Source: Escherichia phage EcoM1. Taken from it: a DNA stretch of 52,452 bases. Of this stretch, positions 33,885 through 49,384 are shown piece after piece. A program made the translations under genes and the position numbers. The number at the start of each line of letters is the position of its first letter. The first letter of the stretch is position 1. The stretch lies in the sequence record PQ818760.1. One strand, written 5' to 3'. The notes below the pieces were generated by a model, which ran no database searches, had not been told where the DNA came from, and saw nothing but the letters and a program-made list of their open reading frames with translations.

Positions 33885-34782
33885 GAATAAGGTGGGGTTT
33901 TGGTAACGCAGGTTTTCCCGAACTGCGAGGCTTGTAGAATCCGTGAGTCGCCTACTGTGTTTTGACATAACGTGGGATTGATGGTCCCGACTCACTTCAT
34001 CTCAGGTACGAGGCACTACTTTGCGAGTGCAAGCAGGTGTTGAACCCAAGTACCAACAGGCAACCTGATTTAATCTACCTTTGTAGATACCATCGGTTAT
34101 GAGCAGTTTATTTCCATGCTCAGGGCAACTCACTTTAGGGTGAATTAGGTTACGCAGTGCAGCTTCGAAGTCGCTGCCACAGGCTTGAGATTCCTGTGTG
34201 GAGGGAAATCCAGAGGAGCACTTCCCCAAGGAGTTACGTTTCAAATTGGCATAGCTTCTCACACTAAACCAATTGAAGACATTCCAGTGTGCTCGTCCGT
34301 CCTCTAGAAATATCCAACTGCATAATTAAGTTTGTACTCTGTCACATCCCCACGCGCACTGGAGGACTTAAGCCTGCTTTGCATCGCAGAATACAAATTA
34401 ATTATTGCTCCGATTTATTAATCACATCTCGAAGCCACAATGCGCCAAATTTGGTTACGTGGGATTGGAAGACCACGGAGAGGACTTAAATTTAATTAAG
34501 CCGCAACTCGCATTTCAGAATCATTTGCATTTATTTTAAATGAATAAAACAGTCGCAATAACTTCGGGCAGTTTAGGCCCGTCGTAAGACTCAGAAAACT
34601 ACTTCAATGAACACTCTTGTCTGGGCCACGAGATTGGGCATCGGCCTACCTCCCAACTCTAATCACAAGAATGCTCATTGAAGCCCACTCTTCCTTTCAG
34701 AATGGGTTCAAGGCAGCACCGGAAAACTTCCAGTGCATGCCAGATCGATTTAGCTTAGTCTCTCAAGTTTGCCATCGGCAAC

Positions 34783-36699: not shown

Positions 36700-37422
36700 A
36701 GGAACTCTCCAATTTTCGATTCAATGTTTGTGACTTCTCTTCTCATCTTTTGGCCCAGGAACAGGCCACAGGGTAGCGCAGGAAGGCCGAAAATCGGGCC
36801 ACTGCCTACCGTTTGTGTCAATTCTGGATAACTGCATTGGTGAAGGGTTACTCCCGTTAGGGTGCGATACGCTAATCACATGAGTGTCGTCGCCTTGCGG
36901 CTCAGGCGTGTCACAGAGGCTTTGCAACCCTTCCCAATACATTCACCCAATCCACCTGCTTTGGCATAGCTGGTGGCGCGGTTTTGTGCGGATTATGCCA
37001 CTCTAAGCCCTGTTTGTCCGACTTCCTCAGAGCACCAGCGGCTTGTGGCACAAACCTATTTTCGAATGACTAACATAAGCATGAGGCATAACCCTCTAAT
37101 TATTCAGCCCTAACAGCTTGCTTATTTAGTTCCAATTCATCCCAATACATCGCCTATAACAAGTGAATAGCTTTTCTGCGAAGAAGTATTCCGGCCCTTT
37201 GGCCTATGTTAAAAGATAAATGTATATGATGGAAACATTCCATCGAAAATAACTTTGTAGAATGAGTCGAACATTCTCGCACGATGCGGCCGCAACGGTC
37301 TACCGAGTTACAAAGTTATTATCTGATGTTGTTTCTTCAATTCCAACTAATGTTTCAGAATTATTCCAATATTCCAAACAAAAAGAATAATAAGAATAAA
37401 TTAAAATAAATGAAGAAAGTGC

Positions 37423-37452
37423 TTGACACTCATTTGGCGATAAGTGTATAAT
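37423..37452 (+). promoter_or_regulatory. consensus sigma70-type promoter, plus strand (antisense to genes)
   Basis: TTGACA (37423-37428), 18-bp spacer, TATAAT (37447-37452); preceded by a 45-nt A/T-rich tract (37376-37420) resembling an UP element. Coordinates anchored on the ORF ending at 37488. Confidence 0.5.
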
Positions 37453-37458
37453 GCCTTT
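37441..37458 (-). promoter_or_regulatory. phage promoter-like element
   Basis: + strand ttccaactaatgtttcag; lies inside the non-coding island, overlapping the -10 of the plus-strand sigma70 promoter. Confidence 0.35.
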
Positions 37459-37482
37459 CTTCCCTAAGTGGTCAGAATCAAA

Positions 37483-37499
37483 TCCCACTAATGTTTCAG
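37483..37499 (-). promoter_or_regulatory. phage promoter-like element (variant)
   Basis: + strand tcccactaatgtttcag, 30 nt right of the sigma70 -10 box. Confidence 0.35.
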
Positions 37500-37563
37500 A
37501 CTAAAGCCGAAGGCCAATGCGAGCACAAAACCCGCTTGGCACTTCGAAGAAACCCGCTTGGAA

Positions 37564-37863
37564 CTATAGTGTTTTCCAATCTGAGTCAAATAGCTCTTTC
37601 GGTCGTGTGTAGATAGTAGAAGAATCAATACTCAAGAAAGTATGGTCCCCGTACTTCTTCACTTCTTGGTAAGCAAACCCATCCACCCAACTTCCGCAGT
37701 GAGTTTTAATCTTTGTAGGCCCAAGAATACGATAGAAAGTGTTTCGAGGCTGGTGGTGAACAATCAATCCAGCCTCAAGTTCAGAAATATTTAAATCACG
37801 CATTTGAGAATAGTATCCCTTCGGAGAAAGTGTAATCACTTCCGTAATCTCTTGCAACTGCAT
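37564..37863 (-). CDS. hypothetical early protein
   Basis: 99 aa; 5' end overlaps the ArdA-like gene, true start may be the internal ATG near 37803. Confidence 0.35.
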   Translation of the reverse strand: MQLQEITEVITLSPKGYYSQMRDLNISELEAGLIVHHQPRNTFYRILGPTKIKTHCGSWVDGFAYQEVKKYGDHTFLSIDSSTIYTRPKELFDSDWKTL

Positions 37864-38344
37864 CCCAATCGATATATGGACGAAGATGGTCTGGAACTTC
37901 TATGCCATCATATTGCTGGAAATAATCCGCAATTGAATTACATCGGCAAATAACCTTGTCATTCAAGTCGTCTACAGTGAAAATATCAATATCACCACTG
38001 CGGAATGCCGCAAGAATTACATCCAAATCAGTATCAACAAGCAGTTCGTTGAATTTGTCGTATCTGCGAATGCTGAACAGGCCGTTGGCAAAGCAAACTT
38101 CGGTAACATCTTCTTCATTTGACTCAATTACGTCATATGTACCGGATTCTGGATACTCAATGCCGTATTCTTCATGCAAATATTCCCGCATGTCGAAATC
38201 ATAGTGACGCCAAGATAGGCCATCAATCCACGCATCTACAAATTCAGAATTAGTCTCGCCTGTGTAGAAACGAACCAGTAGGGTTTCATCTCTACGCCAG
38301 GACTTTAGCTGTTCTACTGCTTGAGTAATGTTATCGTTTTGCAT
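37796..38344 (-). CDS. ardA: ArdA-like anti-restriction protein
   Basis: Acidic protein whose C-terminus (HLRPYIDWDAVARDYGSDYTFSEGILFSN) matches the conserved ArdA C-terminal motif as I recall it (YIDYQAYGRDLDLSGTF...). Start taken at the ATG just past the upstream stop. Confidence 0.65.
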   Translation of the reverse strand: MQNDNITQAVEQLKSWRRDETLLVRFYTGETNSEFVDAWIDGLSWRHYDFDMREYLHEEYGIEYPESGTYDVIESNEEDVTEVCFANGLFSIRRYDKFNELLVDTDLDVILAAFRSGDIDIFTVDDLNDKVICRCNSIADYFQQYDGIEVPDHLRPYIDWDAVARDYGSDYTFSEGILFSNA

Positions 38345-38621
38345 TGAGTTTCTCCCACATGCCTTGGAGTTCCGCATTAAGGATTTTGAGCTGTTCGATT
38401 CGCTCCTTTCCACCCTTTACTAATATGTCTAAGATGGCAGTCTTCTCGTCGTATGTTACCGGATAGCAACAACCATCAACCGAAATTTCGTATCGTAGAT
38501 TTCGAGAATCGTACACATAGTTTGACAAATGCTGGTGGAGTTCTGCCTCTGCACGAGATGTGCGAGATTGCATACGCTCTAACTCTTTCGGTATTTCCTG
38601 ATATTCCATCGGATGCTCCAT
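38331..38621 (-). CDS. hypothetical early protein
   Basis: 96 aa, contains a CC pair and a coiled-coil-like C-terminus. Confidence 0.4.
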   Translation of the reverse strand: MEHPMEYQEIPKELERMQSRTSRAEAELHQHLSNYVYDSRNLRYEISVDGCCYPVTYDEKTAILDILVKGGKERIEQLKILNAELQGMWEKLNAKR

Positions 38622-38629
38622 TGATGAAG

Positions 38630-39046
38630 TTATGCTGGAAGTTCGAAGTGCGGCATATCAATCAGCTTCTTCTTACCTGGTGCAAGTGGCGGATACGGCT
38701 GATTTTCATCAATACGGCTCCAATTCCCACCCCAACGAATGGTAATTCCAAGCTCTTTTGCAGCTTTGAACATATGGTGAGCTAAAACTTTGAATCGTTC
38801 GAGGTCATTCCAGTCAATTGGATATGGTGCAATGTCTAAAGCATTGCCTGACATGTGTCGGCTAACTGAAACTTTGGTTGCACCTTGCTTTAAAAGCTCT
38901 TGTTGACGCTCGTAGGTGCGCAAACCTTCGAGAACAGTTACATCAAACGGCATTGTTTCACATGCACGCTTGAAAACTGCCACCAATGAAGGGTTTACGC
39001 CCTTTAATCGGTCAAGAGAACGTTGGCCCAGCTTAACATTAGACAT
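38630..39046 (-). CDS. endolysin, peptidase M15 family (L-alanyl-D-glutamate peptidase-like)
   Basis: 138 aa with SRHMSGNALDI, DWNDLE and DMPHFE motifs, matching the zinc-binding H..D...H arrangement and the size of T5-type endolysins. Confidence 0.8.
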   Translation of the reverse strand: MSNVKLGQRSLDRLKGVNPSLVAVFKRACETMPFDVTVLEGLRTYERQQELLKQGATKVSVSRHMSGNALDIAPYPIDWNDLERFKVLAHHMFKAAKELGITIRWGGNWSRIDENQPYPPLAPGKKKLIDMPHFELPA

Positions 39047-39878: not shown

Positions 39879-40066
39879 GGAATTAGTGCCTCTGAATAAT
39901 TTTAGATACAGTATGTAGCTTACCTTTATAAAGAATTGCACACCCAACTGTAATAAATTGTTTATTAAGTGTTGAAATTGGCTCGTCAACACCTTCAAGA
40001 TAAATATCCCACATAAATCCTCCAATAATTAATCGAGGCCACTCGAAGTGGAATGACCTCTGTTAA

Positions 40067-40984
40067 TTACAGCTTCTTGATAAGCTCTGCGGATTTGCTT
40101 GCGGCAGCTTTCATTTCATCGCGTGCGGCTTTAACGATTGTTGCCTTGTCCACGCGAATTGATGCATTGCCAATTGCCATCTTGCCATCTTCTGTTGGAG
40201 GAAGTTGGGTTAAATCAAGCATTTGTTCCAGCTTTTGCAAGAGAATACGTTGTGCTTCAATTGCATTTTGAATGTTTAAAGTTTCCATTACTGCTCTTAC
40301 CTTTCTCGAATAAATTCCAGTTAATGTTAGGCGTACTTGCAAACCTTTTACACCATCGTAGTCAATATTGACTTTATTGTATGGTGAGTTTGGATGCTTA
40401 TACACGTTTGTAACAGTTGCCCAATTACCCTTGTACCAAATAACATCACCAACTTCCACATCAGCACCTTTAACATCCTCTTCATCTGAGAATGGTTTCA
40501 CTGCTTCCTCATATGGAAGGAACACTGGCTTTATTTGAGTATCGAACTTCACCGTAGGAGTTTCCTGTGCTGGTGGCGTATTAACAATGTGGACTATGCG
40601 GTTGGGTGAAAAGTCAAAGTATCCTGTTACATGGGTTAATCGAACCACATTTTCAGGTATTTCCCCAAGGTCTTTAACTTCCTTTATCTCAAAGAATCTG
40701 ATTCCATAAGATAAGATGTTTCCAGGTCGTACTTCATGCGCCAATACTGCACGGGTTGTGGTAGGCTTTGTAAAAGATTCTGTAGTGGGACGTTTTTCCA
40801 ATACTCTGACTATACGGCCCAACTCAAAATTAAAGAATCCGCCAGCGTGTTGTAGCTGAACTACATCACTAAGTCTGTTGATGTGTACAATCGGATACCC
40901 TCTACCATCATGAAATACAACATCGCCAGTTTTGACCAAATTTGCAGGTATTTCAACAACATTAATTGCCATGATATTCCTCAC
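40067..40984 (-). CDS. repeat-domain protein
   Basis: 305 aa with three internally similar ~65-aa segments (each beginning V.xGD(V/I)...) and a C-terminal coiled coil; no family recognised. Confidence 0.45.
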   Translation of the reverse strand: MRNIMAINVVEIPANLVKTGDVVFHDGRGYPIVHINRLSDVVQLQHAGGFFNFELGRIVRVLEKRPTTESFTKPTTTRAVLAHEVRPGNILSYGIRFFEIKEVKDLGEIPENVVRLTHVTGYFDFSPNRIVHIVNTPPAQETPTVKFDTQIKPVFLPYEEAVKPFSDEEDVKGADVEVGDVIWYKGNWATVTNVYKHPNSPYNKVNIDYDGVKGLQVRLTLTGIYSRKVRAVMETLNIQNAIEAQRILLQKLEQMLDLTQLPPTEDGKMAIGNASIRVDKATIVKAARDEMKAAASKSAELIKKL

Positions 40985-41094: not shown

Positions 41095-41466
41095 TTAGAA
41101 CGGAATGTCGTCGTCGAAGTCTTTCGGCTCATTCGGGTTATAATTGCTCCGCTGTTGTTGAGCAGGAGCTTGCTGTTGTGCAGAAGGTTGCTGGCGTTGC
41201 TGTTGCTGTTGGGCGGCAGCTTGAGGTTGAGCTTTGGCTTTAGCTTTCTCTTCACGCTTACGCATCATTTCATCGACCTGTTCTTGGGTCATGATGGTTA
41301 ATGCAAGTGAGGTAAATTCATTACCATTTGCTTGCTTGTTCCAGCCAGATACCCAATACCAGATTCCGTCAACGTTAATACGTCCACGAATGTCAGGATG
41401 TTTTGGGTCTTTCTTGAAGCCGTTAGGACCGATAATGCCAGTGTTTACATCTGAATATTGTGCCAT
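41095..41466 (-). CDS. protein with host-SSB-like C-terminal tail
   Basis: 123 aa: about 70-aa N-terminal region, Gln/Ala-rich linker, terminal NEPKDFDDDIPF matching the acidic tip of bacterial SSB; preceded by a promoter-like element. Confidence 0.55.
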   Translation of the reverse strand: MAQYSDVNTGIIGPNGFKKDPKHPDIRGRINVDGIWYWVSGWNKQANGNEFTSLALTIMTQEQVDEMMRKREEKAKAKAQPQAAAQQQQQRQQPSAQQQAPAQQQRSNYNPNEPKDFDDDIPF

Positions 41467-41539: not shown

Positions 41540-41557
41540 CACATCCAACTAATGTTA
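41540..41557 (-). promoter_or_regulatory. phage promoter-like element
   Basis: + strand cacatccaactaatgtta, 74 nt upstream of the ATG at 41466. Confidence 0.4.
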
Positions 41558-42910: not shown

Positions 42911-43141
42911 TTATTTAATTTCTTTCCAGGACCAGATTCCGCCCTCCAAAGGAACACTTTCTCCCTTGTCAAAGTACGGATTTCCATTGGCGTCTTTACG
43001 GTCACTGTCTTTTGAAATATCTATGCGAGGCTCGATTTTATAACCTCGCTTAACGTGCATAATTCTTCCCTCAATCACGTCACCAACTTTTGGAGAGTGT
43101 TCAGATGAAGAGGTTGATTTCACACATTTAAACTTTGTCAT
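42911..43141 (-). CDS. hypothetical early protein (paralog of the next gene)
   Basis: 76 aa beginning MTKFKCVKST, similar in opening and length to the upstream gene. Confidence 0.4.
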   Translation of the reverse strand: MTKFKCVKSTSSSEHSPKVGDVIEGRIMHVKRGYKIEPRIDISKDSDRKDANGNPYFDKGESVPLEGGIWSWKEIK

Positions 43142-43365
43142 TGTAGTAAACCTTGTTCACAAATATCTGCAAATTCTGCTTCATGGTCACGCTGCCATGT
43201 CCAGAATGCACCATTCATAGGAACGACAGCACCTTTACGAAATGCTGGAGAAACATCTTCAGCCGATTTGGTCACTTTAAATTCCAAAGGTGAGATAGCT
43301 TCACCTTCAACGATGAAGCCAACTGGAACATAGTCTTTGGTTGAAGCAACACATTTAAATTTCAT
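43138..43365 (-). CDS. hypothetical early protein (paralog)
   Basis: Start taken at MKFKCVASTK just past the upstream stop; track ORF extends to 43434. Confidence 0.4.
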   Translation of the reverse strand: MKFKCVASTKDYVPVGFIVEGEAISPLEFKVTKSAEDVSPAFRKGAVVPMNGAFWTWQRDHEAEFADICEQGLLQ

Positions 43366-43367
43366 GA

Positions 43368-43550
43368 TTATCCTTTTGGCGGGATATTCCCACTGTTGTC
43401 TATAAGTTTTCCACGATAAATGTTTAAACCACAATCTACACAGAATGCACTGTCCAGAACTACGGGACCATACATTCCCACTGCTTCGTGTGTTACATGG
43501 TCTACATTATTGCTGCCACACTTTGGGCAAACAACATCATCCTCATTCAT
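43368..43550 (-). CDS. zinc-ribbon protein
   Basis: 60 aa with CPKC...CVDC. Confidence 0.4.
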   Translation of the reverse strand: MNEDDVVCPKCGSNNVDHVTHEAVGMYGPVVLDSAFCVDCGLNIYRGKLIDNSGNIPPKG

Positions 43551-45548: not shown

Positions 45549-46446
45549 AAATGGACATGCTTAATTGCAACTAACTCATCTGCCAAATAGACGAATTTTG
45601 TCACAATTAAACATGCATCATTAATTACAGGTTTGCTCCTATCTTGGAATGTATTTGGCACATCAAGAAGTGGCGCAATAGGTACGGAAAACCGACCATT
45701 TACAGCATAATAAAACTAATTAAATAAAGGGTTTTACCCCAATATTGTCACAATATTTACATGCGATGATAAAGCCTTCGCTTGGCTGGAAGCCAGTATT
45801 CATGCGGGTTGCAAGAATATTGGGTCAATACTGATACAGCTATTACATGCGAAATTGGCACAAATGTTGTTACAAAATTAACATGCCAGATTGGTAGACG
45901 ATTGTATCTTCGAGGTGATTAGTCCTCTAACAATTCTGCCACATTCCAACATGCCAATTTGTAGCAATATTTACATGCCATACTGCGACAATATTGTCAC
46001 AATATTTGTTGCTCAAAATCGGGGCGGGCTACGGGATTAGTTTCGATGCTTTGTCCGACTTCTTCTCTTCTTTCGAATTCTGATTGAAAGAAAGAAGCAT
46101 GTCCAAAAGTTCCAATATTACCAAAGTTATCTCCCGGCTTGTGGGTGGGCCTTTATAATAGGAGATGGAGCAATATTGAAACAAGTGGACATGCTGATTT
46201 GCTGACTTTCTTGTAACTTAATCAAGATGGCTAACACGATGTTCTGTTGTTAGTTCAGCACCGGAAGTAACAGTTTCGAATGATAATCCTACTTCACACA
46301 TGGTTGCTGGAACTTTGTCCGGCCAAAGACAGGGAGTTCAATGATTGCCACATCATTACAACACTGTATGTTTAGTTGACATGCTGAAATGTTTCTAGAA
46401 TGATTTCAACATGACATGCGGAATACTTCTCCGTATTCTGTTACTT

Positions 46447-46743: not shown

Positions 46744-48684
46744 TTACTGACAGAAGTAGTAAGCGTGTTCGCTCATCAGCAACTCTTCTGTAACAATGTT
46801 CTCATGATACATCTGAATGCCACCAAGTTGCTTAGACAGATTCTCGAATTGATTGTTGGTTACAAAGATTTCAACATATGCTGCACGAATAACTTCCATC
46901 ATACGTGGAGCATCTGCCAGACAGCAACGGAAACAATCATGGATTGAAGTAAAGCCACGAAGACCAGCCTCTTTAGCTTTAACTGCAACAGTACGAGCAA
47001 CCAATGCGTCAATACCTTGAATGTAGTTAACAACGAAAGTACGCTTGAATTCTTCTTTAGTTGGATTGGATTCACGAATGGTCCAAGGCTTATTCTCCTG
47101 AATCTGGCCAAAGATAACACGAGTTTGAGAGTCAACACGAATGCTGAATGCCTCACAGATTTCACGAGATGGGAAGCAAGGCTTCATTACAACCTGACCA
47201 TCAGTGTGACGATATGTGATGTACTCTTTACCAAGTTCAACACAACGGTTGTATGCAGCATCAGCAGCCTTCTCAATGAACATGTTAATCTTAGCACCCA
47301 ATGCGTTATGGATTGCTTCTACACACAGTTCAGCAAATGCCTCAGCTTTCTCCATAGGAATCTGGAGCGCTTCTGTCATGTAGCTAATGAAGTCAGATGA
47401 ACCAGTTAATGCAGCTTTACCACCACCATATTGAATAGCCATGTACGGAGTTTTGATAAACTTACGACCAGCTTTCGGATTCAAGAATTCATCCATGATT
47501 TCAGGAGATGGTTTCATTGAAGAACGGTCTAATAACTTCAACAGTTCACGAAGAGATAACTGGTATGGGTCAGATGCTTTAGTCTCAGAATCAACCAGAC
47601 CTGTTGCACGAGCCATTTCCATGTTACCAGCAATGAATGCCAGATATTGAGTACCAGAACATTTAGCATCTAGGCCAAAGCCTACACGAGAATCGCACTC
47701 ACCTGTAGTCTCAAACTTGAACCAATCCAGAGCCAGACGAACATAAGTGAATGGCTTGGAAGGACGTTCAGCTTTAGGCATGTTCATCATGCGAGCAAGT
47801 GAACCAGCTGGATTCTGAGCAACATAAGTTAAACGCTTAGCAGTACACCATTCACCACCCGAAATATCTTCCAGCTCTGCCATGAACATGTTGTATGCAA
47901 TGGTAGTAGAACCATCTTCGTTAAACTTCTTAACGATGTTCTCAACATTGTGAGAATACAAGCAACGAGCAAAGTCAGATGATTGTGGGTTAGGACCAGC
48001 ACATGCTACATGATACAGACGACCACGGTTATCAGCAAAGTAGTCAGAGTACAGCTTATCCTGATTCATCATTGCTACAGCATTGTTCCAAACATGGAGT
48101 TCAGTCTGGATTGCTTCTGGCATCTGCAAGCCACCATAAGTACGTTGCTCAATCATGGACTGGATGATGCGAACCATCTCAGTCTCCACATGGTACTCAG
48201 TATCTTGCAGGAATTCGATTGCAGCTTTCAGAGTTTTGGATGGCTTAACTTTGCCACCTTTAACGAAAGGCTTGCGACGAGATTCAGATGTAACACGCTC
48301 AGTGAATGGCACTGCTGTGTCTTTGGTTGTAACCAGCTCAACCCATGTGTCAGTCTGTTGGAATGACTTGTCTTCGTTCATGGTGATGAAGCCAAAGTGC
48401 TTAGCCAGACCAATGAGGTTGATAGCTGGGTCAACATAGTGCATTGCTTTCAAATCGTTGTTATAACGGTTGGCATCAGCAATAGAAGCAGAAGCCAGCT
48501 CAACCATCGCGATGGCAGGAACAACGTCATCACGAGTGAAAGACGTCATCATCTTGAAGATGGCTAAGGCAGCAATAGCACAAGTCTGAGGCTGCATATA
48601 GTTCTGTTTCTCTTTGGCACGGTATACCAGAGCAGTGATAGCAGGAACAACGGATTTGATAGTTTGAGTAGTGATAGTAGTCAT
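46744..48684 (-). CDS. single-subunit DNA-dependent RNA polymerase (T7-type)
   Basis: 646 aa with the three catalytic motifs of T7-class polymerases: LDAKCSGTQYLAFIAG (T7 DGSCSGIQHF, motif A), KTPYMAIQYGGGK (T7 KRSVMTLAYGSK, O-helix K/Y), TSIHDCFRCC (T7 LIHDSFGT, motif C). Shorter than T7 RNAP (883 aa). ATG start with GGAG 9 nt upstream. Confidence 0.85.
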   Translation of the reverse strand: MTTITTQTIKSVVPAITALVYRAKEKQNYMQPQTCAIAALAIFKMMTSFTRDDVVPAIAMVELASASIADANRYNNDLKAMHYVDPAINLIGLAKHFGFITMNEDKSFQQTDTWVELVTTKDTAVPFTERVTSESRRKPFVKGGKVKPSKTLKAAIEFLQDTEYHVETEMVRIIQSMIEQRTYGGLQMPEAIQTELHVWNNAVAMMNQDKLYSDYFADNRGRLYHVACAGPNPQSSDFARCLYSHNVENIVKKFNEDGSTTIAYNMFMAELEDISGGEWCTAKRLTYVAQNPAGSLARMMNMPKAERPSKPFTYVRLALDWFKFETTGECDSRVGFGLDAKCSGTQYLAFIAGNMEMARATGLVDSETKASDPYQLSLRELLKLLDRSSMKPSPEIMDEFLNPKAGRKFIKTPYMAIQYGGGKAALTGSSDFISYMTEALQIPMEKAEAFAELCVEAIHNALGAKINMFIEKAADAAYNRCVELGKEYITYRHTDGQVVMKPCFPSREICEAFSIRVDSQTRVIFGQIQENKPWTIRESNPTKEEFKRTFVVNYIQGIDALVARTVAVKAKEAGLRGFTSIHDCFRCCLADAPRMMEVIRAAYVEIFVTNNQFENLSKQLGGIQMYHENIVTEELLMSEHAYYFCQ

Positions 48685-48752
48685 TTGTAAGTCTCCAAGA
48701 TTGTGTATGATTTAACTGAAACGGATTATAATAGCGTAGCCATTACACAATT

Positions 48753-48770
48753 CACTTCCAACTAATATCA
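48753..48770 (-). promoter_or_regulatory. phage promoter-like element upstream of the polymerase gene
   Basis: + strand cacttccaactaatatca, 69 nt upstream of the polymerase ATG; a TATAAT hexamer lies between it and the gene. Confidence 0.35.
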
Positions 48771-48909
48771 CAAACCTGTGCCATTGTTACAACAGCACGG
48801 AGACTTTGACCTTGACCTATAAGCGAAGCGCCTAACTTGGTGTTGTTTGAAAGCCGATAGGCTTTAGGAAAAAGTTGGGGTAGGGACCGTATTTTAAGTC
48901 CGATAGGAC

Positions 48910-49270
48910 GTTGGGCTTCCCCTCCTCGGAGATAAAAATTTTAAAATAATAATGTCACAACTTCCCCTCCTCGCTGGCCCAAAAATAAAAATTATAATTT
49001 TGCCACAATTCTAGTCTCATTAATATTGTAGCAATTTGAGTCTCATTAATTCCGTAACAATATTCGAAATAAAAAAAATTATATAAAAATTTTTATAACA
49101 TAGTCGGACTTCTGTTGTTACTTCGTAACGGGTTCGAACAAATTTCGGCTAGATACAGCTGACCGACCGTGAACGAATCTATATCCAGGTACAGTTGACC
49201 GACCATGTACCATTTGGTTTTGAACTTTACGCATTCCTAATATTACTTTAAATATTGTAGCAATATTGGG
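48910..49270 (-). repeat. AT-rich non-coding block with paired direct repeats
   Basis: Duplicated cttcccctcctcg (48916, 48961), (t/g)agtctcattaat (49012, 49038), ACAG(C/T)TGACCGACC(G/A)TG (49155, 49191), aatattgtagcaat (49022, 49251), and long A/T runs. Coordinates anchored on the polymerase start and the nrdB stop. Confidence 0.45.
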
Positions 49271-49384
49271 AATAAGTAATATTTAACTTTACTTATTTTA
49301 TTCTAGCTCAAAGAGAAACGACGCTAACGCATCGAATCTCTTCTCGCATATTAACTGACAAACGTCAGCCCTCACCGTATCCAA

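What the first reader, a model, noticed from the sequence alone, without database searches (positions are those of the whole stretch)
37796..38344. ArdA-like DNA-mimic anti-restriction gene in the early region
The acidic early protein carries the conserved ArdA C-terminal motif, implying inhibition of host type I restriction-modification, the role Ocr plays in T7. It supports reading 34.8-45.3 kb as a host-takeover and anti-defence module. The many unassigned small acidic or zinc-ribbon proteins nearby are candidates for further anti-defence functions.
Basis: partly seen in the sequence, partly recalled or inferred. Interest (0 to 1): 0.5.

Follow-up and report, generated by a model that had tools for sequence, protein, structure and literature searches.

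The report
Phage ArdA-family anti-restriction gene, already annotated
This gene of an E. coli phage encodes a very acidic protein of the ArdA family, which imitates DNA to block host type I restriction enzymes; its orthologues in closely related phages have carried the label "antirestriction protein" since 2008, so the call is correct but ordinary.

Summary
Window 37796-38344 (minus strand) is a 182-aa ORF with an ATG start and a GGGAG ribosome-binding site. The protein has pI 4.08 and net charge -26.

The window is a Carltongylesvirus (Chaseviridae), about 96.5% identical in DNA to Escherichia phage ST32. The orthologues, ST32 gp26 (97% aa) and phiEcoM-GJ1 gp22, are already annotated "antirestriction protein", with no experimental evidence.

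- **Single-sequence match:** Pfam ArdA scores only 20.8 bits against a cut-off of 27, and only over the C-terminal part.
- **Key residues:** All four residues essential in Tn916 ArdA are retained.
- **Differences from canonical ArdA:** There is an extra N-terminal helix. A 4-residue deletion shortens the first helix of domain 3. Only 2 of 7 conserved interface acidic residues align.
- **Differences from T7 Ocr:** The gene lies about 10 kb from the likely leading genome end, downstream of phage-type promoter motifs, so "early" is unproven.

Inhibition of type I restriction is inferred, not shown. Novelty is low.

The parts
37796..38344 (-). ardA-like coding sequence. It encodes 182 aa and the range includes the TGA stop. 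It is the orthologue of ST32 gp26 and phiEcoM-GJ1 gp22.
   Evidence: ORF and translation. 97% aa identity to ST32 gp26. PHROG 14321, E 1.5e-53. hhalign to ArdA, 99.7% probability. Fold match to 2W82.
38352..38356 (-). Shine-Dalgarno sequence GGGAG, 7 nt upstream of the ATG. The ATG overlaps the last 14 nt of the upstream gene, which suggests translational coupling.
   Evidence: Sequence read directly. The same site is listed for ST32 gp26.
38285..38344 (-). Residues 1-20. This is an N-terminal helix extension with no counterpart in canonical ArdA.
   Evidence: The AF2 model has a helix at residues 2-15. hhalign and MAFFT alignments to ArdA start only at about residue 21-26.
38099..38284 (-). 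Residues 21-82. They correspond to ArdA domain 1 (three strands plus short helices).
   Evidence: AF2 secondary structure E22-27, E35-40, H42-47, H52-60, E69-75. Alignment to Tn916 Orf18 residues 3-61. Domain definitions come from PMC2731889.
37958..38098 (-). Residues 83-129. They correspond to ArdA domain 2 (helical) and contain F114, the equivalent of essential F91. This genus has a 4-residue insertion here (DIDI, residues 118-121).
37799..37957 (-). Residues 130-182. They correspond to ArdA domain 3 (three strands plus three helices), the dimerisation and target-site-mimicking domain. This is the only part seen by Pfam PF07275 on the single sequence.
   Evidence: Pfam stretch 101-173. 2W82 sequence alignment. 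AF2 elements H138-144, H152-157, H160-170, E171-174, E177-180.
37865..37909 (-). Residues 146-160, DGIEVPDHLRPYIDW. This is the counterpart of the 'anti-restriction motif', which forms the dimer interface (Orf18 residues 126-140). E149, V150, P151, L154, Y157, I158 and D159 are retained.
37808..37813 (-). L178-F179, the counterpart of the essential VF motif (Orf18 I160-F161). F179 is invariant in the family.
38331..38621 (-). Upstream neighbour in the same gene string, 96 aa, function unknown. Its stop overlaps the ardA start.
   Evidence: No Pfam or PHROG hit.
38630..39046 (-). M15-family peptidase annotated as endolysin, two genes upstream. The block peptidase-x-ArdA-x is conserved in the genus Sabourvirus.
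   Evidence: Peptidase_M15_4, E 1.4e-8, and PHROG 465. Synteny in 4HA13.
37564..37803 (-). Downstream neighbour, 79 aa, function unknown. Its ATG overlaps the ardA stop by 8 nt. It is the last gene of the string.
40035..40060 (-). Hairpin terminator-like site upstream of the gene string that holds ardA. Transcripts from the promoter motifs further upstream would have to read through it.
   Evidence: Scan result. The same hairpin is annotated as a rho-independent terminator in SA91KD.
41543..41556 (-). Nearest exact copy of the conserved phage-type promoter motif AACATTAGTTGGAT, located before the SSB gene and upstream of ardA. A weaker copy with 2 mismatches lies at 40315-40328.
   Evidence: 12 matches against 1.2 expected. 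Alignment of the copies. Annotated as 'promoter similar to phiEcoM-GJ1' in SA91KD.
37507..37546 (-). Hairpin that closes the ardA gene string. It is followed at once by two promoter-motif copies (37482-37495 and 37341-37354).
   Evidence: RNA fold of the region. The orthologous terminator is annotated in SA91KD.

Best explanation
The gene encodes a divergent, phage-lineage member of the ArdA family. The proposed mechanism has four steps.

1. The 182-aa protein folds into the elongated three-domain ArdA architecture. It carries an extra N-terminal helix and many surface carboxylates.
2. Two copies pair through domain 3, using the conserved Y-I-D interface, to give a rod that imitates bent B-form DNA.
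3. The rod occupies the DNA-binding groove of the HsdM2-HsdS core of host type I restriction-modification enzymes.
4. Unmodified phage DNA, which carries ordinary numbers of type I target sites, is then not cut.

Shown here: the ORF, its acidity, homology to ArdA, the ArdA fold of a confident model, retention of the residues essential in Tn916 ArdA, and conservation of the gene and its synteny across Chaseviridae genera.

Inferred: dimerisation, binding to type I enzymes, relief of restriction, and time of expression.
For: **Homology**
- PHROG 14321 'anti-restriction protein', E 1.5e-53, full length.
- 13 of 14 clade members hit PF07275 at E<=0.01, and relatives of about 40% identity pass the gathering cut-off.
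- All ten proteins sampled from the exhaustive profile search are above the ArdA cut-off, up to 90 bits.
- hhalign of the clade profile against 20 such ArdA proteins gives 99.7% probability, E 3.6e-26, 144 columns, covering template positions 14-165 of 166.

**Fold**
- AF2 model: pLDDT 89.4, pTM 0.81.
- Foldseek against PDB: only 2W82 ArdA is significant (E 7.7e-5, TM 0.56/0.61, 174 columns).
- BFVD: the top hits are all phage 'antirestriction' proteins.
- The order of secondary-structure elements matches the three domains described in PMC2731889.

**Residues**
- Essential residues: F91, Y137, I138 and F161 correspond to F114, Y157, I158 and F179.
- Dimer hydrogen-bond partners: D139 and D146 correspond to D159 and D166.
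- L134, V130, P131 and E129 are retained.

**Charge**
- Net -26 and pI 4.08, against -32 and pI 4.05 for Orf18.
- Acidity is conserved over 33 relatives down to 34% identity (net -15 to -29), with 17 alignment columns at least 80% acidic.

**Need for protection**
- Type I sites are not depleted: EcoKI 4, EcoBI 12, EcoAI 7, EcoR124I 18.
- GATC is almost eliminated: 1 site against about 160-200 expected.
- The phage evades some type II enzymes by losing sites but remains exposed to type I.

**Conservation**
- The gene is present at at least 80% query coverage in 55 phage records across several Chaseviridae genera. The gene order peptidase-x-ArdA-x was checked, and holds, in ST32, SA91KD and the Sabourvirus 4HA13.
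Against: - No experiment exists for any member of this phage clade.
- The single-sequence Pfam hit is below the cut-off and covers only domains 2-3. phmmer of the single sequence against PDB does not find ArdA.
- Of the seven acidic residues that carry the DNA-like charge pattern across the dimer interface in Tn916 ArdA (D109, D111, D112, D115, E122, E123, E129), only two align with acidic residues here (D140, E149). Two are N136 and S137. Three fall in gaps caused by a 4-residue deletion specific to this genus. L127 aligns with G147.
- The gene is about 10 kb from the probable leading end and lies behind phage-type promoter motifs and a terminator. The protein may therefore be made too late to protect the entering genome of a contractile-tailed phage.
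- ArdA-like phage proteins can have other targets: Fletchervirus gp119 inhibits endonuclease V (PMC13091555).
Confidence: 0.72

Rival explanations
1. The protein has the ArdA fold and is a DNA mimic, but its main target is different or broader. Candidates are BREX or type III methyltransferase-type enzymes, a DNA repair nuclease, H-NS, or another DNA-binding host protein. It might also protect replicating rather than entering DNA.
For: - Five of the seven interface acidic residues are lost, and the first helix of domain 3 is shortened. That helix is the part that overlies the type I target sequence.
- The position and promoter context suggest middle rather than immediate-early expression.
- The ArdA-like gp119 of a Fletchervirus inhibits EndoV.
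- Ocr also inhibits BREX (PMC7261183).
- ArdA, Ocr and Arn interact with H-NS according to the review PMC12707154.
Against: - Every ArdA-family protein whose activity against type I restriction is reported in the papers read here inhibited it. These include half-size sArdN and sArdC of about 19% identity (PMC12548430) and ArdAs from diverse elements (PMC2731889). For gp119, type I inhibition is only predicted.
- The essential residues and the overall charge are retained.
- The genome carries normal numbers of type I sites.
- Broader activity would add to type I inhibition, not exclude it.
Confidence: 0.2
2. The gene is not an anti-defence gene. It would be an acidic protein with a structural or replication role, as a few database records suggest ('tail fiber protein', 'replication inhibitor protein').
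For: Some GenBank records label the orthologue 'tail fiber protein' (MLP1, PYps3T, PYps23T, FXie-2024a) or 'replication inhibitor protein' (Pel53).
Against: - The gene lies among small pre-replication genes, far from the structural module.
- No tail-fibre or replication family hit appears in Pfam or PHROGs.
- The only fold match is ArdA.
- These labels look like automated annotation errors.
Confidence: 0.03
3. The ORF is a chance ORF, or the ArdA resemblance is a compositional artefact of an acidic sequence.
For: The single-sequence Pfam score is sub-threshold. With the shallow 14-sequence profile, archaeal PriL chains scored slightly better than ArdA in PDB (E 0.006 against 0.03).
Against: - The ORF is conserved with the same length and start in 55 phage records and about 70 metagenomic clusters.
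- The PriL hits disappear with the 33-sequence profile, and ArdA is then the only hit.
- hhalign gives E 3.6e-26.
- Structure-based matches do not depend on composition.
Confidence: 0.01

Closest known systems
ArdA of conjugative transposon Tn916 (Orf18; PDB 2W82; Pfam PF07275)
   Same: - pI about 4 and a large negative net charge.
- Anti-restriction motif and dimer interface residues Y-I-D, the VF motif and F91 are all retained.
- Profile-profile homology over nearly the whole ArdA length.
   Different: - About 23% identity over the alignment.
- 182 aa against 165 aa, with an extra N-terminal helix of about 20 residues.
- A 4-residue insertion (DIDI) in domain 2.
- A 4-residue deletion in the first helix of domain 3.
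- Only 2 of 7 interface acidic residues align with acidic residues, and L127 is replaced by G147.
- Carried by a virulent phage rather than a conjugative element, and not placed at the leading end.
Annotated 'antirestriction protein' of other Chaseviridae: ST32 gp26, phiEcoM-GJ1 gp22, flopper, SA91KD gp28, 4HA13 gp22, Faunus, PP101/PM1, Aeromonas phiA050
   Same: Orthologues with 24-97% aa identity. In the three relatives whose annotation was read (ST32, SA91KD, 4HA13) the gene is of about the same length (177-182 aa) and in the same position after the M15 peptidase gene. All belong to PHROG 14321 or hit it.
   Different: Nothing essential. The window protein differs from ST32 gp26 at about 5 residues in 182. 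The more distant genera keep the 4 residues deleted in Carltongylesvirus and score above the Pfam cut-off.
Ocr (gp0.3) of phage T7
   Same: An acidic DNA-mimic dimer of a virulent coliphage that encodes a single-subunit RNA polymerase. The presumed target, type I R-M, is the same (PMC2731889, PMC12707154).
   Different: - Not homologous: no Ocr hit in Pfam or in the fold searches.
- Ocr mimics about 24 bp, while ArdA mimics about 42 bp.
- Ocr is the first gene transcribed during slow genome entry. This gene lies about 10 kb in, behind phage-type promoter motifs.
gp119 of Fletchervirus NCTC 12673 (ArdA-like EndoV inhibitor) and the small sArdN/sArdC proteins
   Same: These are divergent ArdA-related proteins, and gp119 is phage-encoded. 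They show that ArdA-like folds of low sequence identity keep DNA-mimic activity.
   Different: gp119 matches only ArdA domains 2-3, and sArdN/sArdC are one-third-length proteins. The protein here is full length with all three domains. No EndoV-related function is suggested, because Chaseviridae DNA has no reported base modification.

Membership tests
ArdA (Pfam PF07275) | Sequence homology to the family profile | tested here: met
   - The single sequence is below Pfam's cut-off (20.8 bits against 27; E 6e-4; residues 101-173 only).
- 13 of 14 clade members hit at E<=0.01 (best 5.5e-9).
- Relatives of about 40% identity carry PF07275.
- hhalign of the clade profile against 20 proteins gives 99.7% probability, E 3.6e-26, over 144 columns. 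Six of the 20 were individually confirmed above the ArdA cut-off. The 20-protein profile itself matches 2W82 at E 2.6e-12.
ArdA (Pfam PF07275) | Three small domains in a row: beta-rich N-terminal domain, helical central domain, and a winged-helix-like C-terminal domain with a 3-stranded sheet | tested here: met
   - AF2 model: pLDDT 89.4.
- Foldseek against PDB: 2W82_B, E 7.7e-5, TM 0.56/0.61, 174 columns, the only hit with E<=0.001.
- The order of elements agrees with PMC2731889.
ArdA (Pfam PF07275) | Anti-restriction motif / dimer-interface residues (Orf18 126-140: L127, L134, Y137, I138, D139; partner D146) | tested here: met
   L134, Y137, I138, D139 and D146 correspond to L154, Y157, I158, D159 and D166. 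E129, V130 and P131 correspond to E149, V150 and P151. The one exception is L127, which aligns with G147, with I148 adjacent.
ArdA (Pfam PF07275) | VF motif and F91, which hold domains 2 and 3 together and are essential in genetic tests | tested here: met
   I160-F161 correspond to L178-F179, and F179 is invariant in 33 relatives. F91 corresponds to F114.
ArdA (Pfam PF07275) | Very acidic protein (pI about 4) with conserved Asp/Glu | tested here: met
   - pI 4.08 and net -26, with 22% Asp+Glu. Orf18 has pI 4.05 and net -32.
- The clade range is net -15 to -29, with 17 columns at least 80% acidic.
ArdA (Pfam PF07275) | Conserved acidic residues that carry the DNA-like charge ribbon across the dimer interface (Orf18 D109, D111, D112, D115, E122, E123, E129) | tested here: inconclusive
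   - Only D115 (D140) and E129 (E149) align with acidic residues.
- D111 and D112 align with N136 and S137.
- D109, E122 and E123 fall in gaps caused by a genus-specific 4-residue deletion.
- Nearby acidic residues (D118, D120, D125, D126, D129, D146) might compensate, but that needs coordinates of a dimer.
ArdA (Pfam PF07275) | Homodimer that mimics about 42 bp of bent B-DNA | not testable with these tools
   Only single-chain prediction was available, without coordinates or interface scores. Interface residues are retained.
ArdA (Pfam PF07275) | Binds the HsdM2S core and relieves type I restriction (and modification) in vivo | not testable with these tools
   No experimental report was found for any Chaseviridae ArdA. 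The ArdA tested by Silas et al. is a canonical ArdA taken from a bacterial RefSeq record (WP_000129958.1 in NZ_CP028579.1), not this clade.
ArdA (Pfam PF07275) | Expressed first on entry (the leading region of plasmids; by analogy the first-entering phage DNA) | tested here: inconclusive
   - The gene starts 10.3 kb downstream of the start of the RNAP gene. In 4HA13 the RNAP gene lies in the left terminal repeat.
- The nearest upstream signals are phage-type promoter motifs at 41556 and 40328 and a hairpin at 40060-40035.
- Sigma-70-like sites are no more frequent than chance.
- No transcript data were found.
Ocr (T7 gp0.3) | Homology or fold similarity to Ocr, and first gene at the leading genome end | tested here: not met
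   No Ocr family appears among the Pfam hits. No Ocr chain is listed among the PDB matches. The position is not terminal. The relation to Ocr is at most functional analogy.

The most novel reading that the evidence does not exclude
The Carltongylesvirus ArdA may be a retargeted DNA mimic.

- It has a shortened, less acidic first helix in domain 3, an added N-terminal helix, and probable expression from a phage-polymerase-driven middle operon.
- It might therefore act mainly on something other than the entering genome's encounter with classical type I enzymes.
- Possible roles are protecting rapidly replicating unmodified progeny DNA, or blocking another DNA-tracking defence such as BREX, type III enzymes or type I-derived decoys.
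- That would make it a phage-specific functional variant of ArdA.
Probability: 0.15. Interest if true: 0.45.

Novelty: already known. Interest (0 to 1): 0.15.

Why it matters
It matters little as a discovery. The gene has been labelled a putative antirestriction protein in this phage group since the phiEcoM-GJ1 genome (cited as 2008), and more than 30 GenBank records carry the label.

The modest value of this check is fourfold.
- It puts the label on firmer ground: fold and profile-profile evidence rather than a sub-threshold Pfam hit.
- It shows that the clade deviates from canonical ArdA in the charge-bearing helix of domain 3.
- It points out that the gene's place in the genome does not fit the 'first gene in' logic of Ocr or of plasmid ardA.
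- It notes that nobody has tested the protein.

Carltongylesviruses are considered for biocontrol of pathogenic E. coli. Knowing whether they really neutralise type I restriction bears on host-range prediction.

Tried and rejected
- **phmmer against PDB:** the single protein found no ArdA, only a meaningless E 0.43 hit to a sheath-initiator protein.
- **Shallow profile A1:** the 14-sequence profile ranked archaeal primase PriL chains (E 0.006-0.015, about 60 residues) above ArdA (E 0.032). I rejected this lead because it vanished with the 33-sequence profile, where ArdA was the only hit. No fold search listed PriL either.
- **NCBIfam:** the scan was uninformative. Even a canonical ArdA (P0117) matched no ArdA model, so the library seems to lack one.
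- **RNA genes:** Rfam (gathering threshold) and ARAGORN found no RNA gene in the window.
- **AFDB50 fold library:** not installed.
- **Original phiEcoM-GJ1 genome paper (PMC2223254):** not held. Its promoter definition was therefore taken second-hand from the SA91KD annotation.
- **Literature:** searches for tests of Chaseviridae or Carltongylesvirus phages against EcoKI, and for transcript timing, found nothing relevant.
- **Silas et al. ArdA control:** I checked whether it was from this phage group. It is a canonical ArdA from a bacterial RefSeq record.
- **Long GTG start at 38413 (205 aa):** rejected because orthologues start at the ATG, which has the SD.
- **Tandem-fusion dimer prediction:** not attempted. 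The tool returns no interface metrics and would refuse a sequence that is not in the window.
Full report
**What is at the coordinates**

The interval 37796-38344 is one ORF on the minus strand.
- It starts at ATG 38344-38342, and GGGAG at 38356-38352 lies 7 nt upstream.
- It ends at TGA 37798-37796 and encodes 182 residues.
- Its ATG overlaps the last 14 nt of the upstream gene (38331-38621). Its stop overlaps the ATG of the downstream gene (37564-37803) by 8 nt. It is therefore part of a tightly packed, probably translationally coupled gene string.
- A longer reading from GTG 38413 is not used by any orthologue.
- The protein has 24 Asp, 16 Glu, 3 Lys and 11 Arg, giving net -26 and pI 4.08.

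**What the window is**

The region is 96.5% identical in DNA to Escherichia phage ST32. It is 80-95% identical to about 45 other records, mostly E. coli and Yersinia phages of the genus Carltongylesvirus, family Chaseviridae.
- These are contractile-tailed virulent phages that encode a T7-like single-subunit RNA polymerase. They have linear genomes of 52-56 kb with terminal repeats of about 3 kb (PMC12842549).
- All large ORFs of the window lie on the minus strand. The polymerase gene is at 46744-48684.
- The protein is 97% identical to ST32 gp26 and 80% to phiEcoM-GJ1 gp22. Both are annotated '(putative) antirestriction protein', and the ST32 record adds 'No experimental evidence'.
- The finding therefore re-derives an existing annotation.

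**Is it really ArdA? Sequence evidence**

PF07275 scores 20.8 bits against a cut-off of 27 (E 6e-4) and matches only residues 101-173. phmmer against PDB sequences does not find ArdA. PHROG 14321 'anti-restriction protein' matches end to end at E 1.5e-53, but that family is built from these same phages.

Independent support comes from going through relatives.
- A word-indexed search found about 50 close clusters without a precomputed Pfam hit. It also found two proteins at 41% identity that carry PF07275.
- Searching again with a profile added about 20 more at 32-40% identity, nearly all with PF07275.
- 13 of 14 clade members hit ArdA at E<=0.01.
- An exhaustive HMMER search of 1.84 billion representatives found 175 proteins at E<=0.001. 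Many are 160-175 aa long and match the C-terminal half. All ten that I sampled exceed the ArdA cut-off, up to 90 bits.
- hhalign of the 33-sequence clade profile against 20 of the proteins from that search, six of which are among the ten sampled, gives 99.7% probability and E 3.6e-26. It covers 144 columns, query 25-178 and template 14-165 of 166. That is the whole ArdA length, not only the C-terminal motif.
- One false lead arose. The shallow 14-sequence profile ranked archaeal PriL above ArdA in PDB. With the 33-sequence profile ArdA 2W82 is the only hit.

**Is it really ArdA? Fold evidence**

AlphaFold2 with the 33-sequence alignment gave a confident model: mean pLDDT 89.4, pTM 0.81, and no segment below 50.
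- Foldseek against PDB: the only match with E<=0.001 is 2W82_B, 'The structure of ArdA' (E 7.7e-5, probability 1.00, TM 0.56/0.61, 174 columns). The next match has E 1.0.
- Predicted viral structures: the top matches are 'antirestriction protein' of phages 4HA13, Pantoea SSEM1 and Proteus Myduc.
- The secondary-structure order fits the domains described for Tn916 ArdA: 3-61, 62-103 and 104-165 (PMC2731889). After a helix at 2-15 come three strands with short helices (22-84), then helices (92-116), then three strands with three helices (127-180).

**Defining residues**

I rebuilt the Orf18 sequence and aligned it with both profiles. Residues 1-155 come from the tool alignments. The last ten come from memory and are consistent with the residue numbers given in the paper.
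- The four residues found essential by genetics are retained: F91, Y137, I138 and F161 correspond to F114, Y157, I158 and F179.
- Also retained are D139 (D159), D146 (D166), L134 (L154), V130 (V150), P131 (P151), E129 (E149) and the VF motif (L178-F179).

**Differences from canonical ArdA**

- There are about 20 extra N-terminal residues that form a helix.
- A 4-residue insertion (DIDI, 118-121) lies in domain 2.
- A 4-residue deletion shortens the first helix of domain 3. Both indels are specific to the Carltongylesvirus branch.
- L127 aligns with G147.
- Seven acidic residues continue the phosphate-like ribbon across the dimer interface in Orf18. Only two of them align with acidic residues here.
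- Overall acidity is conserved across the clade: net -15 to -29 and pI 4.05-4.57, with 17 columns at least 80% acidic.

**Mechanism**

By homology, the most likely mechanism is that of ArdA. An elongated acidic dimer imitates about 42 bp of bent DNA, fills the DNA groove of the HsdM2S core, and blocks restriction, and usually modification, by type I enzymes (PMC2731889).

The genome composition fits a need for this.
- Target sites of EcoKI (4), EcoBI (12), EcoAI (7) and EcoR124I (18) occur at about the expected numbers.
- GATC occurs once against 160-200 expected. Several 6-bp palindromes are absent, for example CTGCAG at 0 against 23.
- Fixed type II sites are thus avoided by sequence, and variable type I specificities are left to a protein inhibitor. 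This division of labour is an inference.

Dimerisation, binding and activity were not testable here.

**Context and timing**

- The gene lies among small genes between the polymerase gene and the replication genes, so it is pre-replicative by position.
- In the relative 4HA13 the polymerase gene lies inside the 3.1-kb left terminal repeat, and ardA is 9.5 kb in. Here ardA starts 10.3 kb downstream of the start of the polymerase gene.
- A conserved motif, AACATTAGTTGGAWGTGA, occurs 12 times at 2 or fewer mismatches against 1.2 expected. Ten copies are on the coding strand, and in the instances examined a copy follows directly after a hairpin. In SA91KD it is annotated as the phiEcoM-GJ1 promoter, although the ICTV profile says the phage-polymerase promoters are not yet identified.
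- Upstream of ardA the nearest copies are at 41556 (exact, before the SSB gene) and 40328 (2 mismatches). A hairpin terminator follows at 40060-40035. Then come eight genes including ardA, with no further motif, and the string ends at a hairpin at 37546-37507.
- Sigma-70-like sites are no more frequent than in shuffled sequence.
- Expression by read-through from phage-type promoters, a middle class, is therefore at least as likely as immediate-early expression. Ocr and plasmid ardA are the first genes expressed on entry (PMC12707154).
- This is the main reason to keep a rival in which the protein protects replicating DNA or has a different or broader target. The ArdA-like gp119 of a Fletchervirus, which inhibits endonuclease V, is a precedent (PMC13091555).

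**The 'module' claim**

I scanned 27 other minus-strand ORFs between 34.8 and 45.3 kb against PHROGs, and 9 of them also against Pfam. Only an SSB (41095-41466) and an M15 peptidase annotated as endolysin (38630-39046) receive a function. All the rest are 'unknown function' or have no hit. The idea that they are anti-defence genes is plausible for small pre-replication genes but has no support beyond ardA itself.

**Verdict**

The gene is a divergent but genuine member of the ArdA family, and it is already annotated as such in its close relatives. Its activity is untested. Its place in the genome and a remodelled domain-3 helix are the only mildly unusual points.

Novelty: already known. Interest: low.

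Noticed in passing
whole window; the single GATC is at 34743: GATC is almost absent: 1 site in 52,452 bp against about 160-200 expected. CTAG is at 0.19 of expectation, and several 6-bp palindromes are absent (CTGCAG 0 against 23 by Markov expectation; also CTCGAG, CACGTG, AGTACT, AGGCCT). Type I and type III target sequences are not depleted.
   Followed up: partly
minus-strand copies ending at window 48769, 46463, 45548, 41556, 40328, 37495, 37354, 35549, 35217, 27493, 7874: A conserved motif of about 18 nt, AACATTAGTTGGAWGTGA, gives 12 hits at 2 or fewer mismatches against 1.2 expected. Copies are almost all on the coding strand, and in the instances examined a copy lies directly after a hairpin terminator. 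One copy lies just upstream of the RNA polymerase gene. It is annotated as a promoter in SA91KD, yet the ICTV profile states that Chaseviridae phage-polymerase promoters are unidentified.
   Followed up: partly
window 38630-39046 (-): An M15-family L-alanyl-D-glutamate peptidase annotated as 'endolysin' sits among the small pre-replication genes, two genes upstream of ardA. It is far from the late and structural genes. The arrangement peptidase-x-ArdA-x is conserved in the genus Sabourvirus.
   Followed up: partly
window 48685-49384: A 700-nt stretch without any minus-strand ORF of 40 aa or more lies immediately upstream of the RNA polymerase gene. By comparison with 4HA13 it is likely to hold the physical left end of the genome and the early promoters. 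Two smaller ORF-free stretches lie at 34263-34754 and 45662-46028.
   Followed up: no
window 36700-37500 (-): About 0.8 kb downstream of two tandem promoter-motif copies (37495, 37354) has no annotated gene in ST32 or SA91KD. The window there holds only weak short ORFs. There is no Rfam or tRNA hit.
   Followed up: partly
GenBank records of orthologues (MLP1, PYps3T/4T/16T/23T, FXie-2024a, Pel53): The same protein is labelled 'tail fiber protein' in several records and 'replication inhibitor protein' in Pel53. These are probable automated mis-annotations. Pel53 is deposited as a Staphylococcus hyicus phage although it is about 90% identical to these coliphages.
   Followed up: no
window 42911-43141 and 43138-43434 (-): Two adjacent small genes belong to the same PHROG (18786), so they are a tandem duplication of a gene of unknown function in the pre-replication region.
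   Followed up: no
ardA gene, residues about 130-182 (window 37799-37957): Among close relatives the C-terminal third occurs in two alternative sequence versions (…YFQQYDGIEVPDHLRP… and …YFKQSEALDIPDRLAP…). These combine with otherwise near-identical N-terminal parts (e.g. P0004), which suggests recombination within the gene.
   Followed up: no
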